Assembly (NCBI RefSeq): GCF_018977255.1
Contig: NW_024704760.1
Coordinates: forward strand, 1,798,001 to 1,862,000
From: Callorhinchus milii
Taxonomy: Eukaryota
Direction of reading: 5' to 3'
Length of the DNA stretch: 64,000 nucleotides
Shown here: positions 45,201-54,200 of the stretch, piece after piece
How positions within the stretch are numbered: the stretch's first letter is position 1
How the letters are laid out: each line of letters opens with the position of its first letter
Made by a program: the position numbers

Positions 45201-48200
45201 CCCTGTAAACTAATGAATAGCGTGGTCCTAAACCAACCATCTGATGGATAGGGTGATCCTAACTGGAGAAACAGTGGGAAAACTGCCTTTCAGTACTTTC
45301 AGTGGTAAATTATGCACTTTTAGCTGATTAAACTCCAATATTTACCACAAACCTCGTCTCTCGCCAACTGGCAGCTAATAATCTCTGGAATTGGATAAAC
45401 AGGGTGCGTCATTCCAGAGACAGAGAGAGAGAGAGAGAGTGCACATTCCATTACTCCCATAGGGACATTTCCATGTGTAGGTGGCATTCTCTCAGCCTGG
45501 TTTGGATACCCTTAAACACGGTGCTGGGTTTCCGCATGTGTCAGACACGTGGCTGCCCCCCCAAAAAACACAAAAGATTCTCACCAGCCATTCTGACATT
45601 AAGGTTTGAAAGTTGCAAAACGAGCCCTCCTCATTGTGTTATATTTCACAAACTTGGCAAAGAGTTGGGCGCTTCTCGAAAAGCGTTCCCACTTCCTGTT
45701 CTCTGCTCCGCAGGTTACTGTACATTGTGCTGGGAGTGCTGGGGCTGCTGCTGATTGCAGGCATTCTGTCTGTACTTTTGCTCAGGAAGCAAAAGCAAAA
45801 GAAAAAGCACGGTAGGTGTCTGGCTCATTAACATTTAATTATTTATATTGACATTTATATTAATTATGTCATTGTTGTCAAGTGGCTGCCCAAAACATAT
45901 ACAGTTAATTCACTTTACAGTATATTCTGTGAAGCGCTTTGAGACGTCTCGAAGACGTGATAAGGCGCTTTATCAAATGCAAGGATTATTATTATTATTA
46001 TTATTAGGAAGTGGATGATTCTTGCCAACATTTCTCCTCTGTTTAAGATCTCCGCCTTCCTGTTTCAGGTAAAAGAACGGTTGGCTCACGTGGAGCAGGG
46101 AATGGTGATGAGGTAAGACGTTTAATATACGCTTTATGACGCCAAGAAAAGTTAAAACTGATGTCCTGGGGTCTGTCTACAAGTGGATGTTAAAGAACCA
46201 CTATTCAAAAAGAGACAGGAGTTTCTCCCCATGTTTTGGCCAACAATCCGCCAGCTTAACTGGTCATTCACGTCCCGGCTGTTTGTGGGACATTGTGTGC
46301 GCAGATTGTGAAGCGAGCGATTTGAGACAGTGACATTATAGACGCGATTTCAATCGCAAAATTATTACTCAGTTCTATGCAAGCGTGACTGAGCATTGCA
46401 TTGACTGGTGAAATTAATTTCAGCTTGAAAGCAATATTACATACGCAACTGTGCAGAAGAGGCAAGCTCGTTCTGTGGCTGGGAGCAGCGAGGGAGCCAC
46501 ATTTACTGGAGATGCCGACATCAATTACGCAGAAGTGCAGTTAGTTCAGAGATCGGCAGAGAGTGGAACACCAGCCACGCTCTCACCTGACACTGGCAAC
46601 ACCACCATTTACAGCAATATCATGGTTCAAAATCCACCGTCGCAGGACAGAAAGGAAAATTGGAATCGGTTGGAATCAACAGAATATGCTACAGTTGCAC
46701 ATTAGCAGCAAGAATAGTGATGGGTATGTGTGTGTGGTGGGGGAGAGGGAATGCAACCCATGATGTGCTATTGATCACAAGTCGCAATTTTCGCTATATT
46801 GATGCATCGCGATGTGGGGCAGGAGTAGCTCACAATGCCTTTATTCCCATTAGCCGTTTTTGGCTCCAGTAAAATGCGCAGGGCTTTATGCGGCAATCCT
46901 TTTATGTTATTTTTGTCGGACGTTCAGAGATGCTGCACTATTTGTGTCCAAACTGTCCACAAAAAAAAACATCACCCTGATGGGATTTCCTCTGTCTGGC
47001 TGAGCAGGTAGACACATGCTGCGGGATTTCCTCTGGCTCCAATTAAACAACTCAGGGGATCCCATGTGTGTGACCGGCATTGCCTAATGTAACGCTGCGC
47101 TGAATGTTTACGCCTTTCGCTGAGTTGAATAAAAGTCTCAACTTCTTGACTTTCAGTGTTCATTTGCCTCAATAGTTGGGGAAGTGGAGCTGTGGGCGGA
47201 GCCACCACAACAAGCTGTCCCTGATATTAACACACACACCGTTCACATGGGAAATCTTAGTGTCACATGTACCGTTGTGCTAGTTCTGAGGATTTAGTTG
47301 ATACACATATGAGCAATGGATGACAAGAAAGAAAGTCAGTCACATACAGGTGCCTCCCTGCACCTAATACTTTCTGGGATTTCCACATGCAGGTGGGATA
47401 CATGATCTCTGTCTAGTTCGAATGCCGTGAAGCACGATGATGGATTTGTGCGTGTGTCAGACACCCGGCTGATTATGGTGATGGGTTTCCGCATGTGTCA
47501 GACATGGGTTGGACACCTGGCTGACACCTGAAAATAAATTGTAGCCGAATATAACCAGCTTGGTTTCATTTTCTGAAATATACAGGAAGAGATCATCTAG
47601 ATCACATGAATGCTCAATAGTCTACTGTGAGCTACTGCCAGTTCCTGAGCTTAACTCTGAAATTGATATCTGAAGACAAGGACAGAGCTAATCATGTTCC
47701 TGCCATTTTCGGTGCCTCCAATTCTCATTCCGTTGGCCTCTGCAAACCAAGTTGATCTACTCTTCACCCCAAAGAAAACATTGGCCATTGTGATTCTTCT
47801 CTATTCTTCTCTCTCAGGTGAGTGACAACCTGAACTGGGTTTTACCACTACTACAGAACCATAGAAACTTACAGCACAGAAGGTATCCATTTGGCTCATT
47901 GTATCTGTGCCGGTTCTTTCAAAGAGCAAACCTTTCAGTCCCAATTAGCTGCCTTTGCCCCCAACCCCCACCCCGTTCCCCATTCTCTGTAGTTTTTGCT
48001 GTGTGTGATTAGCTGCCACTGTTCACCAACAAAATGTTCAGTCAATTCATTTTACAGAATATTCCGTGAAGTGTTTTGAGATGTTTGCCAGGATTATTAT
48101 TATTATTACTCCGGCAGTTTAAACAATTACCGGAACGTCATTTTATTTCTGCTTTTAAAATTGAACTTTTCTTTTGCAGCAAAAATGTGATGTAAAGTGT

Positions 48201-51200: not shown

Positions 51201-54200
51201 GGCTCTTCGTGACAGTCAAGTAAGAGCCTGATAGTAGGGTTTTACTGTTAAATTCATTGTCTGCTTGTTTGTCGGTGTGTCAGTGATGATCACGAGACCT
51301 CCTGTAAGGCCTCGTTAACGGCTGTACTTTATTTCAGTGTTTAAGGGAGTCTGAATTCAATGTCACATACGATGATGTGGAGAAGAGACAGGCCCACTCG
51401 GTGGTCAGGGACAGTGAGGGAGCCTCGCCTTTATTTGGTGGAGATGACAACATCACATACGCAGAAGTACAGTTTGGCCGGGAAACGTTGTTGGAGAGTG
51501 GAGACGAATGTCCAGTTGGCTCGGACACCAACACAACATACGCCACCATCAAGTTTTTCCAGCCTCCAAAGACATTTGATCAGTCGAAATCAGTGACGGA
51601 CACTGTCGAAAATAATGATAATCCTTGCATTTGATACAGCGCCTCATCATGTCGTTGAGATATCCCAAAGCACTTCACAGGATATACTGTAAAATGAATT
51701 GACTGCGTATTCTGTGGGCAAAACTCGGCAGCCAATGCACACAGCAGTGTCCCACAAACAGTCGTGGATTGAGTGACAAAATGATTATTATAGTTTTTGG
51801 AGGGGTTCCTTACTCCCGAAAAGCGATTTGCCAATTAACTGGGTTCCTACCAACTGCTAGGTAAACAGCGTGTGGAGTAAGGAAACTTGCCCTAGGTTTC
51901 GTCCCACCTGGGAATCAAAACTGGGTCCTCTTCCTTGCGAGGCAAGTGCTCTAACCACTACGCTCCAGAACTCCAAATTCCCTTTAACTTAATGCTTGCT
52001 TATCTCTGAGCTCTTTCAGCCTTGTAATCACATGTCACATTAAGGTGTCAGCCTGGCTCAGTGGGGAGCAATCTCACCTTTTCTTGATGCTTTGCTGGAC
52101 ACTTGTCACATTTCCTTTCTCTAGGCCCCAGGTAATACTGCTTGATTTTTTAGCCAAGTCTGTTCAGAATGTGCATAGTCAGAGTGTTATGTAATACAGT
52201 ACTTAACAGTCAACAGTTTGCAAAATTACAGTCGATAATGTGTAAAGATGGTGAATTATATATGTCCTTAAATAAATATAACCATTTGTTCACATTGGGA
52301 ATGTGACCTGTGTTCCATTGGAACTCTCGGGGGTATTAGTTACGACAAATGTAGAAGTTCATAACCGTGATCAGCCGGGTTTCTGACACACAGAAACCCA
52401 TCACCGTGATCAGCCGGGTTTCTAACACACAGAAAACCATCACAGTAAGCAGCCGGGTGTATGATACAAGCATGACCCCATCTCGATGCTTCATATATGC
52501 CATCTGGACATGGATATTCCTGTTAAATCCTGATAATCTATTTCCAGAGAGGCACCTGTATGTGATTGGCTTTCTTTCTTGTCATCGATTGAACACGTTT
52601 GTATTTTTGTGACAACTATGTCCTCAGAACTAACGCAATGGGACACATGACACTAAGATGTGAACGGTGTGTGTGTTAATATCAGGGACAGCTTGTTGTG
52701 GTGGCTCCGCCCACAGCTCCACTTCCCCAACTATTGAGGCAAATGAACACTGAAAGTCAAGAAGTTGAGACTTTTATTTAACTCAGCGAAAGGCGTAAAC
52801 ATTCAGCGCAGCGTTACATTAGGCAATGCCGGTCACACACATGGGATCCCCTGAGTTGTTTAATTGGAGCCAGAGGAAATCCCGCAGCATGTGTCTACCT
52901 GCTCAGCCAGACAGAGGAAATCCCATCAGGGTGATGTTTTTTTTTGTGGACAGTTTGGACACAAATAGTGCAGCATCTCTGGACGTCCGACAAAAATAAC
53001 ATAAAAGGATTGCCGCATAAAGCCCTGCGCATTTTACTGGAGCCAAAAACGGCTAATGGGAATAAAGGCATTGTGAGCTACTCCTGCCCCACATCGCGAT
53101 GCATCAATATAGCGAAAATTGCGACTTGTGATCAATAGCACATCATGGGTTGCATTCCCTCTCCCCCACCACACACACATACCCATCACTATTCTTGCTG
53201 CTAATGTGCAACTGTAGCATATTCTGTTGATTCCAACCGATTCCAATTTTCCTTTCTGTCCTGCGACGGTGGATTTTGAACCATGATATTGCTGTAAATG
53301 GTGTGTTGCCAGTGTCAGGTGAGAGCGTGGCTGGTGTTCCACTCTCTGCCGATCTCTGAACTAACTGCACTTCTGCGTAATTGATGTCGGCATCTCCAGT
53401 AAATGTGGCTCCCTCGCTGCTCCCAGCCACAGAACGAGCTTGCCTCTTCTGCACAGTTGCGTATGTAATATTGCTTTCAAGCTGAAATTAATTTCACCAG
53501 TCAATGCAATGCTCAGTCACGCTTGCATAGAACTGAGTAATAATTTTGCGATTGAAATCGCGTCTATAATGTCACTGTCTCAAATCGCTCGCTTCACAAT
53601 CTGCGCACACAATGTCCCACAAACAGCCGGGACGTGAATGACCAGTTAAGCTGGCGGATTGTTGGCCAAAACATGGGGAGAAACTCCTGTCTCTTTTTGA
53701 ATAGTGGTTCTTTAACATCCACTTGTAGACAGACCCCAGGACATCAGTTTTAACTTTTCTTGGCGTCATAAAGCGTATATTAAACGTCTTACCTCATCAC
53801 CATTCCCTGCTCCACGTGAGCCAACCGTTCTTTTACCTGAAACAGGAAGGCGGAGATCTTAAACAGAGGAGAAATGTTGGCAAGAATCATCCACTTCCTA
53901 ATAATAATAATAATAATAATCCTTGCATTTGATAAAGCGCCTTATCACGTCTTCGAGACGTCTCAAAGCGCTTCACAGAATATACTGTAAAGTGAATTAA
54001 CTGTATATGTTTTGGGCAGCCACTTGACAACAATGACATAATTAATATAAATGTCAATATAAATAATTAAATGTTAATGAGCCAGACACCTACCGTGCTT
54101 TTTCTTTTGCTTTTGCTTCCTGAGCAAAAGTACAGACAGAATGCCTGCAATCAGCAGCAGCCCCAGCACTCCCAGCACAATGTACAGTAACCTGCGGAGC

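What the first reader, a model, noticed from the sequence alone, without database searches (positions are those of the whole stretch)
47694..51634. Copy B: an intact-looking receptor ORF with no Ig domain, or an alternative 3' module for copy A
Seen: leader-like exon, mucin exon, TM exon and two tail exons join in frame (882 nt, 293 aa). I found no Ig-like exon in the 2.1-kb intron 47818-49894. The mucin exon is phase 1, so it could also accept the V or C2 exon of copy A. Inference: either an Ig-less mucin-type inhibitory receptor, or a switchable stalk/TM/tail cassette giving copy A two signalling outputs.
Basis: partly seen in the sequence, partly recalled or inferred. Interest (0 to 1): 0.68.

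Follow-up and report, generated by a model that had tools for sequence, protein, structure and literature searches.

The report
Ig-less mucin-stalk inhibitory receptor paralogue
In the elephant shark, a gene of the CD300/pIgR-like immune receptor family has lost both of its immunoglobulin exons but keeps an open frame for a signal peptide, a sugar-rich stalk, a membrane anchor and an inhibitory tail, so it is either an unusual receptor without a binding domain or a well-preserved relic.

Summary
Five exons (47694-47817, 49895-50225, 50594-50670, 51167-51219, 51338-51634) have canonical AG/GT sites and sum to 882 nt, giving 293 aa. A public 293-aa Callorhinchus milii protein, named 'cell wall protein RTB1-like', has the same sequence.

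Copy B is a diverged paralogue (dS about 1) of the neighbouring receptor gene A. Gene A is built leader-V-C2-stalk-TM-cyt1-cyt2, and its V domain is of the pIgR/CD300 type. B has counterparts of A's leader, stalk, TM, cyt1 and cyt2 exons with the same intron phases, but no V or C2 exon.

- **No Ig remnant.** None was found in the 2.1-kb intron or elsewhere in the B locus.
- **Stalk.** It is enlarged by a 15-nt tandem repeat (6 copies of TSSPQ; 61% Ser+Thr+Pro).
- **Tail.** All three tyrosines sit in ITIM/ITSM-type motifs.
- **Signs of erosion.** A's start codon aligns with TTG in B, which uses an ATG 13 codons upstream. The last 7-8 codons and the stop lie in an antisense SINE. A's fourth Tyr motif is missing. 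No orthologue was found.

The reading as a separate Ig-less gene is favoured. No support was found for use as an alternative 3' cassette of A. Whether B functions is not settled.

The parts
47694..47817 (+). B exon 1: leader-type exon of 124 nt ending in phase 1. The ATG at 47694 lies 13 codons upstream of the TTG that aligns with the start codon of A and A'.
   Evidence: Positions 47791-47837 are 85% identical to the A leader and donor (41762-41808) and to the A' leader (57647-57601). The hydrophobic core at residues 28-41 resembles A's leader core.
47818..49894 (+). Intron 1 (2077 nt). It has no Ig exon or recognisable remnant and carries several SINE and other repeat fragments, for example 47996-48094, 49107-49212 and 49732-49852.
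49895..50225 (+). B exon 2: Ser/Thr/Pro-rich stalk (mucin-like) exon of 331 nt, phase 1 to 2. It matches A's 124-nt stalk exon (44968-45091) in position and phase, but not recognisably in sequence.
   Evidence: Composition: 28 S, 20 T and 18 P in 109 aa, with 2 Cys and overlapping N-x-S/T sequons at N23 and N24.
50010..50122 (+). Tandem repeat of a 15-nt unit, 7.5 copies with 91% matches. In frame it gives 6 copies of TSSPQ.
50594..50670 (+). B exon 3: transmembrane exon of 77 nt with no charged residue in the span. The acceptor, donor and phase are the same as in A's TM exon (45714-45811).
   Evidence: 17 of 25 aa identical; dN/dS 0.28
51167..51219 (+). B exon 4: short cytoplasmic exon of 53 nt, phase 1 to 0. 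It is the counterpart of A's 44-nt exon at 46069-46112. Both begin GTAAAA; otherwise they are diverged (2 of 14 aa identical).
51338..51634 (+). B exon 5: cytoplasmic tail with the motifs VTYDDV, ITYAEV and TTYATI, ending in the TGA stop.
   Evidence: The tail is 73% identical in DNA to A's tail at 46426-46542.
51609..51975 (-). SINE copy, antisense to B. Its end supplies the last 7-8 codons (ENNDNPCI) and the stop codon of B.
   Evidence: It differs at 23 of 215 positions from a consensus of the other copies in the window.
52271..52276 (+). The only AATAAA on the + strand in 51635-52900 (no ATTAAA there). Candidate poly(A) signal of B.
41707..46705 (+). Copy A, an intact 7-exon paralogue that matches P0002 (425 aa): leader 41707-41788, V 42605-42931, C2 43463-43783, stalk 44968-45091, TM 45714-45811, cyt1 46069-46112, cyt2 46424-46705.
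52421..56729 (-). Copy A', an inverted copy of A. B lies in the 4.9-kb unique spacer (47503-52420) between the two arms.
   Evidence: 79-91% identity to 42439-47502

Best explanation
Copy B is a separate gene. It is an old paralogue of the neighbouring CD300/pIgR-like inhibitory receptor gene A that has lost both Ig exons and kept the rest.

**Predicted product (inferred).** A type I membrane protein with:
- a signal peptide;
- an ectodomain of about 110 aa that is disordered and probably O-glycosylated, enlarged by a 15-nt tandem repeat;
- one uncharged transmembrane helix;
- a tail with two ITIM-type motifs and one ITSM-type motif.

**Proposed mechanism (inferred, not shown).** There is no ligand-binding Ig domain. 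The protein would therefore not act as a classical receptor. It would act as an inhibitory membrane adaptor or sialomucin. After phosphorylation of its tyrosines by Src-family kinases it would recruit SH2-domain phosphatases of the SHP-1/SHP-2 type. It would be engaged either tonically, or when lectins bind or cluster its glycans.

**Shown here:** the exon structure, paralogy with A, absence of Ig exons, the motifs, and identity with a public gene model.

**Inferred:** expression, glycosylation, phosphatase recruitment and present-day function.
For: - **Match to a public model.** The five exons have canonical splice sites and one open frame of 293 codons. P0001 has the same sequence.
- **One-to-one exon match with A.** All non-Ig exons correspond in order and in phase: leader ending in phase 1; stalk 331 vs 124 nt, both 1 to 2; TM 77 vs 98 nt; cyt1 53 vs 44 nt; cyt2 starting in phase 0.
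- **Own leader exon.** It is homologous to the A and A' leaders, with a conserved donor.
- **Candidate poly(A) signals of A** lie upstream of B's ATG.
- **TM and tail are more conserved than silent sites.** TM dN/dS is 0.28. Pooled TM+cyt1+cyt2 is 0.52 with dS about 1 (Fisher p = 0.002).
- **All tyrosines of the tail exon (cyt2) sit in motifs.** 3 of 3 lie in [SIVLT]xYxx[IVL] motifs that align with A's first three.
- **Open frame unlikely under neutrality.** In simulations with substitutions only, the frame stayed open in 0.0010 of 20,000 runs at d = 0.25 and in 0.036 at d = 0.107. The latter value is the divergence of the SINE that supplies the stop codon.
- **No annotated chimera.** No database protein joins an Ig domain to this tail.
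Against: - **Lost start codon.** The family's start codon aligns with TTG in B. Translation depends on an ATG 13 codons upstream in former 5'-UTR sequence, which gives an unusually long N-terminal region before the hydrophobic core.
- **SINE-derived C-terminus.** The C-terminus and stop come from a SINE. A's fourth motif (TEYATV) has no counterpart, and no remainder of it was found downstream.
- **Weakly discriminating dN/dS.** The values are pairwise and include A's branch. A value of 0.52-0.55 is what one constrained branch plus one neutral branch would give.
- **Fast-evolving family.** dN/dS between A and A' is 1.16 for the V exon and 0.85 for C2.
- **Mucin exon uninformative.** It is open in a second forward frame as well, so its openness says little.
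- **No orthologue.** None appeared among 1.84 billion representative proteins. Of 8 hits, only P0001 and P0002 are real.
- **Divergent exons.** cyt1 (2 of 14 aa identical) and the stalk show no significant sequence similarity to A.
- **No transcript evidence could be consulted.** A gene model alone may be ab initio.
- **High pseudogene prior.** Clusters of this kind are rich in pseudogenes: 30 genes and 25 pseudogenes in the zebrafish NILT cluster (passages of bioRxiv 10.1101/2022.04.21.489081).
Confidence: 0.55

Rival explanations
1. B is a decaying relic. It is a partial family member that lost its Ig exons and its original start codon and is no longer functional. The open frame survives because the loss of function is recent.
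For: - ATG aligned to TTG at the ancestral start.
- SINE-derived stop and a missing fourth Tyr motif.
- No orthologue found.
- Pairwise dN/dS of 0.52-0.55 is compatible with a neutral B branch.
- Its neighbour A' already carries a 1-nt frameshift in the tail exon.
- Such clusters have a high pseudogene fraction (passages).
Against: - There is no stop or frameshift in 293 codons, and all 8 splice sites are canonical.
- In the DNA alignment of the tail exon, the B-versus-A gaps up to the third Tyr motif are 6, 6, 3 and 6 nt, all multiples of three. Beyond it the alignment is poor and contains a 7-nt gap.
- The probability of an open frame is 0.036 if B has drifted since the SINE insertion, and 0.0010 at d = 0.25.
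- The three Tyr motifs, the TM helix and the leader donor are conserved.
Confidence: 0.3
2. Exons 2-5 of B serve as an alternative 3' module of copy A. The V or C2 exon of A would splice to 49895 and give A a second stalk, TM and tail.
For: A's V and C2 exons end in phase 1 and B's stalk exon starts in phase 1, on the same strand and 6.1 kb downstream. Within this family, the same Ig exons do occur with different 3' parts in separate gene copies. A' and A'' are 98.4% identical over the Ig part and differ downstream.
Against: - The phase match is generic for Ig-superfamily genes, and A's own stalk exon has identical phases.
- Such splicing would have to skip four intact A exons, three candidate poly(A) signals and B's own leader exon.
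- B's leader exon and its donor are conserved, which would be unnecessary for a pure cassette.
- No database protein combines an Ig domain with B's tail.
- B's tail carries the same kind of motifs as A's, so the module would not provide a different signalling output.
Confidence: 0.08
3. B does have an Ig exon that was missed, either because it is too divergent or because it lies outside the intron, or the Ig exons are absent through an assembly error.
For: The searches only detect recognisable Ig sequence. B lies between two inverted repeat arms, a setting prone to assembly errors.
Against: - 0 of 55 intron ORFs hit an Ig family at E <= 1.
- The best tblastn E was 0.14 across the whole 4.9-kb spacer, and there were no hallmark motifs.
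- The longest forward ORFs lying wholly within the intron are 151 and 66 aa, and neither has an Ig signature.
- The window has no N.
- The arms are 9-21% diverged, so they are not collapsed copies.
- The public model also lacks an Ig domain.
Confidence: 0.05

Closest known systems
CD300 (CMRF35-like) / pIgR-like receptors, including inhibitory CD300a and CD300f and the neighbouring gene A (P0002)
   Same: B is a paralogue of A. A's V domain matches pIgR (E = 3e-46) and CMRF35-like molecule 1 (E = 1e-20) among solved structures. A's database relatives are named pIgR-like or CMRF35-like. B shares with A the leader, Ser/Thr-rich stalk, uncharged TM and multi-ITIM tail, with the same exon phases.
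   Different: B has no V-set domain and no other Ig domain, which is the defining feature of the family. Its stalk is 2.7 times longer than A's.
Nepmucin / CD300LG
   Same: This is a CD300-family member with a mucin-like domain between the Ig domain and the membrane. It is described as a sialomucin that supports L-selectin-dependent lymphocyte rolling (title and abstract start of PMC2118321, listing).
   Different: That nepmucin keeps an Ig V domain and has no ITIM tail is recalled, not taken from any call. B has only the mucin-like part plus ITIM/ITSM motifs.
Transmembrane adaptor proteins with inhibitory motifs: SIT and LST1
   Same: These are small membrane proteins that recruit SHP-type phosphatases. 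[quoted passage not shown] LST1 binds SHP1 and SHP2 (abstract start of PMC8111073). That they lack a ligand-binding ectodomain is recalled.
   Different: This is a resemblance of architecture only; no comparison of B with SIT or LST1 was made. B's ectodomain of about 110 aa is much longer and mucin-like. B derives from an Ig-superfamily receptor gene.
[quoted passage not shown]
   Same: [quoted passage not shown] Gene A may belong here.
   Different: No MDIR sequence was in hand, so membership was not tested. None of the 43 relatives carries that name. Whether any described MDIR lacks Ig domains was not checked.

Membership tests
CD300/pIgR-like Ig-superfamily receptors | Extracellular V-set Ig domain, with the extra Cys pair (Cx7C) | tested here: not met
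   No Ig domain was found in any B exon or in the locus 47503-52420. Gene A meets the feature: V-set 3.1e-12, pIgR/CLM-1 matches, and CRGHFRSTC visible in the sequence.
CD300/pIgR-like Ig-superfamily receptors | Descent from a family member (paralogy of the non-Ig exons) | tested here: met
   Leader, TM and tail are homologous to A at the DNA level, at 85%, 75% and 73% identity. Splice positions and phases are the same. blastp of P0001 against P0002 gave E = 1.5e-10 over the TM-tail part.
ITIM-bearing inhibitory receptors | Cytoplasmic [SIVL]xYxx[IVL] motif or motifs, and no charged residue in the TM | tested here: met
   VTYDDV and ITYAEV are ITIM-type and TTYATI is ITSM-type. The TM sequence YIALGVLGPLLMLCVLSVLL has no charged residue. 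The motif definitions are recalled.
ITIM-bearing inhibitory receptors | Tyrosine phosphorylation and recruitment of SHP-1, SHP-2 or SHIP | not testable with these tools
   This needs biochemistry.
Mucin-type (sialomucin) membrane glycoproteins | Ser/Thr/Pro-rich tandem repeats in the ectodomain | tested here: met
   61% S+T+P in 109 aa with 6 copies of TSSPQ. The 15-nt unit occurs 7.5 times.
Mucin-type (sialomucin) membrane glycoproteins | Dense O-glycosylation | not testable with these tools
   Inferred from composition only.
Transmembrane adaptor proteins (SIT/LST1 type) | Short ectodomain without a binding domain, plus tyrosine motifs. The juxtamembrane palmitoylation Cys is typical of many members (recalled). 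| tested here: inconclusive
   B has no binding domain and has tyrosine motifs. However, the ectodomain is about 110 aa. The residues after the TM are KKHGK with no Cys. No comparison of B with SIT or LST1 was made.
Pseudogene | In-frame stop, frameshift or broken splice site | tested here: not met
   None was found in five exons and eight splice sites. The ancestral start codon aligns with TTG, but an upstream in-frame ATG exists.
MDIR (cartilaginous-fish modular domain immune-type receptors) | Sequence relationship to the skate MDIR genes | not tested
   Only a literature mention was available. No MDIR sequence was retrieved.

The most novel reading that the evidence does not exclude
An innate immune receptor gene has been turned into its opposite. 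It has shed its binding domains, expanded its stalk into a mucin and kept its inhibitory tail. The cell would then be inhibited not by what the protein binds, but by whatever lectin binds the protein's glycans, or tonically by the protein alone. Because mining of immune receptor clusters usually starts from Ig domains, such Ig-less signalling paralogues would be systematically overlooked. They may be a regular component of these clusters.
Probability: 0.15. Interest if true: 0.7.

Novelty: new variant of a known kind. Interest (0 to 1): 0.4.

Why it matters
If B is expressed, it shows that a member of the CD300/pIgR-like family can survive as a signalling-competent membrane mucin without any Ig domain. 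That would be a vertebrate example of a receptor-to-adaptor (or receptor-to-ligand) transition inside a paired-receptor cluster.

It also exposes an annotation gap. The public record is named after a yeast cell-wall protein because of its Ser/Thr repeats, which hides its origin.

Cluster surveys that start from Ig domains, and define pseudogenes by them, would not list such genes. Passages of bioRxiv 10.1101/2022.04.21.489081 show such Ig-centred criteria.

If B is a relic, it is an ordinary by-product of birth-and-death evolution in an immune gene cluster.

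Tried and rejected
- **Hidden Ig exon.** tblastn, Pfam on 55 of the 60 ORFs of at least 25 aa that overlap the intron, and a motif scan all found nothing. The 5 ORFs left out lie mostly in exons 1 or 2.
- **Intron remnants at the DNA level.** blastn (word size 7, E <= 1e-3) of 47400-52500 against the whole window gave only repeat hits, plus the leader, TM and tail matches. At this divergence, decayed exons would be undetectable. Deletion and in-place decay therefore cannot be told apart.
- **Remainder of A's C-terminus or fourth Tyr motif downstream of the SINE.** Not found by blastn or tblastn.
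- **Orthologues or an outgroup to polarise changes on the B branch.**
  - The HMMER search of 1.84 billion representatives gave only P0001 and P0002 as real hits.
  - The other 6 of 8 hits are long proteins with several matched stretches. The three whose sequences were read are internally repetitive.
  - 5 of the 6 were scanned in Pfam and none showed a vertebrate-type Ig-superfamily domain. P0005 was not scanned.
  - Among 41 fetched V-domain relatives, none has an alignable TM or tail; the best E was 0.07.
- **P0021's Arg-containing TM segment.** It was not found in the window.
- **Literature.** Searches for elephant shark or Callorhinchus with CD300, pIgR or ITIM returned 0 papers. None of the 10 papers listed (of 72 found) contained the phrase 'lacks the Ig', and none of their titles points to an Ig-less mucin ITIM protein.
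- **Joined spliced product.** Searches were made exon by exon, so whole-protein predictions (signal-peptide cleavage, disorder, structure) were not made.

Full report
**Source of the window.** The window is not human and has no N. Searching the last exon of copy B returned a single protein, P0001. It is 293 aa, 100% identical, and named 'cell wall protein RTB1-like [Callorhinchus milii]' (1 protein at E <= 0.001 among 57 candidates). The window therefore comes from the elephant shark.

**The observation.** The five exons lie at 47694-47817, 49895-50225, 50594-50670, 51167-51219 and 51338-51634.
- All four acceptors are AG and all four donors are GT.
- The lengths 124+331+77+53+297 sum to 882 nt, which is 293 codons plus TGA.
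- The phases run 0, 1, 2, 1, 0.
All searches were made exon by exon, and the joined step was left out. The joined product was seen only as the database's own record P0001.
- P0001 contains the per-exon translations, in order. It maps back to exons 1, 2, 4 and 5 at 99-100% identity. The short TM exon was checked by eye.
Its public name reflects only the Ser/Thr repeats.

**The neighbourhood.** A self-comparison of the window shows three larger relatives.
- Copy A lies on the + strand at 42439-47502.
- Copy A' is inverted, at 52421-56729. Its identity to A is 79% over the V region, 87% over C2 and 91% over the 3' half.
- Copy A'' lies on the - strand. Its stretch 60544-64000 is 98.4% identical to 54178-57630 of A'.
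- B sits in the 4.9-kb unique spacer between the inverted arms of A and A', in the same orientation as A.

**Structure of A.** A matches P0002 ('uncharacterized protein LOC103182453 isoform X1', 425 aa). Its seven exons sum to 1278 nt (with splice sites read by hand):

| Exon | Coordinates | Length (nt) |
|---|---|---|
| leader | 41707-41788 | 82 |
| V | 42605-42931 | 327 |
| C2 | 43463-43783 | 321 |
| stalk | 44968-45091 | 124 |
| TM | 45714-45811 | 98 |
| cyt1 | 46069-46112 | 44 |
| cyt2 | 46424-46705 | 282 |

- A's V exon is of the pIgR/CD300 type. It scores V-set 3.1e-12 in Pfam, and pIgR 3e-46 and CMRF35-like molecule 1 at 1e-20 among solved structures.
- Many of its 43 database relatives at E <= 1e-10 are named 'polymeric immunoglobulin receptor-like' or 'CMRF35-like molecule'.

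**B is A without its Ig exons.** Every non-Ig exon of A has a counterpart in B, in the same order and with the same phases.
- **Leader.** The 3' end of B's exon 1 and the first 20 nt of the intron are 85% identical to the leader and donor of A and A'. Both exons end in phase 1 with CAG|GTGAGTGACA.
- **TM exon.** It aligns at 75% identity, with the same acceptor and donor positions. 17 of 25 residues are identical.
- **Tail exon.** It aligns at 73% over 124 nt.
- **Stalk and cyt1 exons.** They correspond only in position and phase. The stalks are 331 vs 124 nt, both phase 1 to 2. cyt1 is 53 vs 44 nt, and both begin GTAAAA. Their sequence similarity is not significant.
- **Divergence.** It is large, with dS about 1, so B split from the A lineage long before A and A' separated (dS about 0.14).

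**No Ig exon in B.**
- tblastn with the V and C2 exon ORFs of A, and the C2 exon ORF of A', against 47503-52420 gave nothing below E = 0.14. The same queries found all three V and all three C2 copies elsewhere in the window at E <= 4e-51.
- Of the 60 ORFs of at least 25 aa that overlap the intron, I scanned 55 in Pfam. The 5 left out lie mostly in exons 1 or 2. None of the 55 hit an Ig family at E <= 1. Two had unrelated weak hits (IGFL 0.024, Apolipo_F 0.24).
- A scan for Ig hallmark motifs in the three forward frames found none.
- The intron does contain several SINE and other repeat fragments.
- Neutral sequence would be unrecognisable at this divergence. I therefore cannot say whether the Ig exons were deleted or decayed in place.

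**What the product would look like.**
- **Exon 1** encodes 41 residues with a hydrophobic core at residues 28-41, like A's leader core.
- **Exon 2** encodes 109 residues with 28 Ser, 20 Thr and 18 Pro (61%), 6 copies of TSSPQ, two Cys and overlapping N-x-S/T sequons at N23 and N24. The repeat is a 15-nt unit present 7.5 times with 91% matches. A's stalk has 40 residues and is 42% Ser+Thr+Pro.
- **The TM helix** has no charged residue.
- **The tail** has three tyrosines, all within VTYDDV, ITYAEV or TTYATI. These align with A's ITYATV, INYAEV and TIYSNI. A has a fourth motif, TEYATV, which B lacks.
- Reading these as ITIM and ITSM motifs that recruit SH2-domain phosphatases rests on established knowledge of such motifs, not on a test made here.

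**Signs of erosion.**
1. The start codon of A and A' aligns with TTG in B. B's frame stays open to an ATG 13 codons upstream, in what is 5'-UTR sequence in A. There is no other Met in exon 1.
2. The last 7-8 codons (ENNDNPCI) and the stop lie inside an antisense SINE at 51609-51975. No remainder of A's C-terminus was found beyond it.
3. No orthologue turned up. An exhaustive HMMER search of 1.84 billion representative proteins with the tail exon gave 8 hits at E <= 0.001. Only P0001 and P0002 are real. The other six are long proteins with several matched stretches, and the three whose sequences were read are internally repetitive. Five of the six were scanned and none showed a vertebrate-type Ig-superfamily domain; one was not scanned.

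**Selection or drift.**
- Nei-Gojobori estimates for B against A are 0.28 for TM, 0.55 for cyt2 and 0.52 pooled over TM+cyt1+cyt2 (Fisher p = 0.002).
- These are pairwise values and include A's branch. One constrained branch plus one neutral branch would give about the same figure, so they do not settle B's status.
- No outgroup with an alignable tail was found among the 41 fetched relatives.
- The family evolves fast in any case. Between A and A', dN/dS is 1.16 for V and 0.85 for C2.
- The open frame is more telling. In simulations of neutral substitution applied to each exon separately (20,000 runs each), all five exons stayed free of stops in 0.0010 of runs at 0.25 changes per site and in 0.0001 at 0.5. 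The lineage leading to B was therefore under purifying selection for most of its history.
- The SINE that supplies the stop differs from a consensus of the other copies in the window at 23 of 215 positions. At that divergence the frame survives in 0.036 of runs, or 0.16 if the mucin exon is left out.
- This is moderate evidence that the present, SINE-terminated frame has been maintained. Two caveats apply: SINE subfamily structure may inflate the age, and the simulation ignores indels and splice sites, which would lower the survival rate further.

**Separate gene or 3' cassette of A.**
A's V and C2 exons end in phase 1 and B's stalk exon starts in phase 1. However, this is generic to Ig-superfamily genes, and A's own stalk exon has the same phases.
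- *Against the cassette:*
  - B has its own conserved leader exon and donor.
  - A has four intact downstream exons and candidate poly(A) signals at 47042, 47128 and 47533, all before B's ATG.
  - No database protein joins an Ig domain to B's tail.
  - Both tails carry the same kind of motifs, so no second signalling output would result.
- Transcripts could not be examined, and the tool that lists cluster members was switched off. A small probability therefore remains.

**Comparison with what is known.**
- By descent, B belongs with the CD300/pIgR-like receptors, but it fails their defining feature, the V-set domain.
- In design it resembles two known kinds:
  - nepmucin/CD300LG, a CD300-family sialomucin (PMC2118321, listing and abstract start);
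  - the small transmembrane adaptors SIT and LST1, which recruit SHP phosphatases (PMC2193021 and PMC8111073, listing and abstract start).
- Cartilaginous-fish relatives of CD300/pIgR have been described as MDIRs (passages of PMC3031540). I had no MDIR sequence, so that membership is untested.
- Literature searches for elephant shark or Callorhinchus with CD300, pIgR or ITIM found no paper. None of the 10 papers listed contained the phrase 'lacks the Ig', and none of their titles points to an Ig-less mucin ITIM protein. This covers only the open-access library searched.

**Verdict.**
- The reading 'Ig-less mucin-type protein with an inhibitory tail, encoded by its own gene' is the best supported (0.55, including present-day function).
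- A recently inactivated relic is the main rival (0.3).
- The alternative-cassette idea has no positive support (0.08).
- A hidden Ig exon or an assembly error is unlikely (0.05).
- This is a new variant of a known kind, of moderate interest, and directly testable with cDNA.

Noticed in passing
42439-47502 (+) and 52421-56729 (-): Copies A and A' form a large inverted duplication, tail to tail, around a 4.9-kb spacer that holds B. Identity rises from 79% over the V exon region to 91% over the 3' half. For the Ig exons, dN/dS between A and A' is about 1 (V 1.16, C2 0.85), which suggests diversification or relaxed constraint on the binding domains.
   Followed up: partly
53143-53487 (-), compared with 46418-46705 (+): A' has a 1-nt deletion in its tail exon relative to A. 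The frame shifts after ...DTGNT, removing the last two Tyr motifs. The public model P0003 (669 aa) avoids this by using a terminal exon at 52163-52077 (-), which lies in B's 3' flank on the opposite strand. The same model also strings the leader, V and C2 exons of A'' and A' into one protein, so it is probably a merged model.
   Followed up: partly
60544-64000 (-) and 59530-60536 (-): A'' is 98.4% identical to A' over the leader, V, C2 and stalk part and then diverges at about the TM exon. The public protein P0021 ('CMRF35-like molecule 2', 220 aa, with an Arg in its TM segment) maps to A'' at the V exon (94.7%), at 60536-60489 and at 59616-59530. A'' may therefore be the activating partner of a paired set. 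P0021's TM segment itself was not found in the window.
   Followed up: partly
51609-51975 and 24 other places, for example 14344-14726, 31000-31286, 58751-58974: One SINE family, with a conserved 3' part ending in an ATT run, has 25 copies or fragments of at least 100 nt in the window. They are 5-22% diverged from a local consensus. One copy supplies B's stop codon, and others lie in introns of A, A' and B.
   Followed up: partly
17116-19587 (+); 26322-30060 (-) and 38770-39207 (-): Two G-protein alpha-subunit genes lie tail to tail upstream of the receptor cluster, with Pfam G-alpha hits down to 6e-25. An ORF at 38770-39207 (-) reads [29 protein letters not shown]..., which looks like the first exon of a G-alpha-i type gene (that resemblance is recalled). 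CCDC48-like exons lie at 759-3029 (+).
   Followed up: no
38800-40800: This is a GC-rich, strongly G-skewed low-complexity stretch with internal repeats (40034-40708). It lies between the putative first exon of the G-alpha gene and copy A.
   Followed up: no
52360-52458 and 47428-47502: A 39-nt tandem repeat (2.5 copies) marks the inner end of the A' arm. It matches, in inverted orientation, the inner end of the A arm.
   Followed up: no
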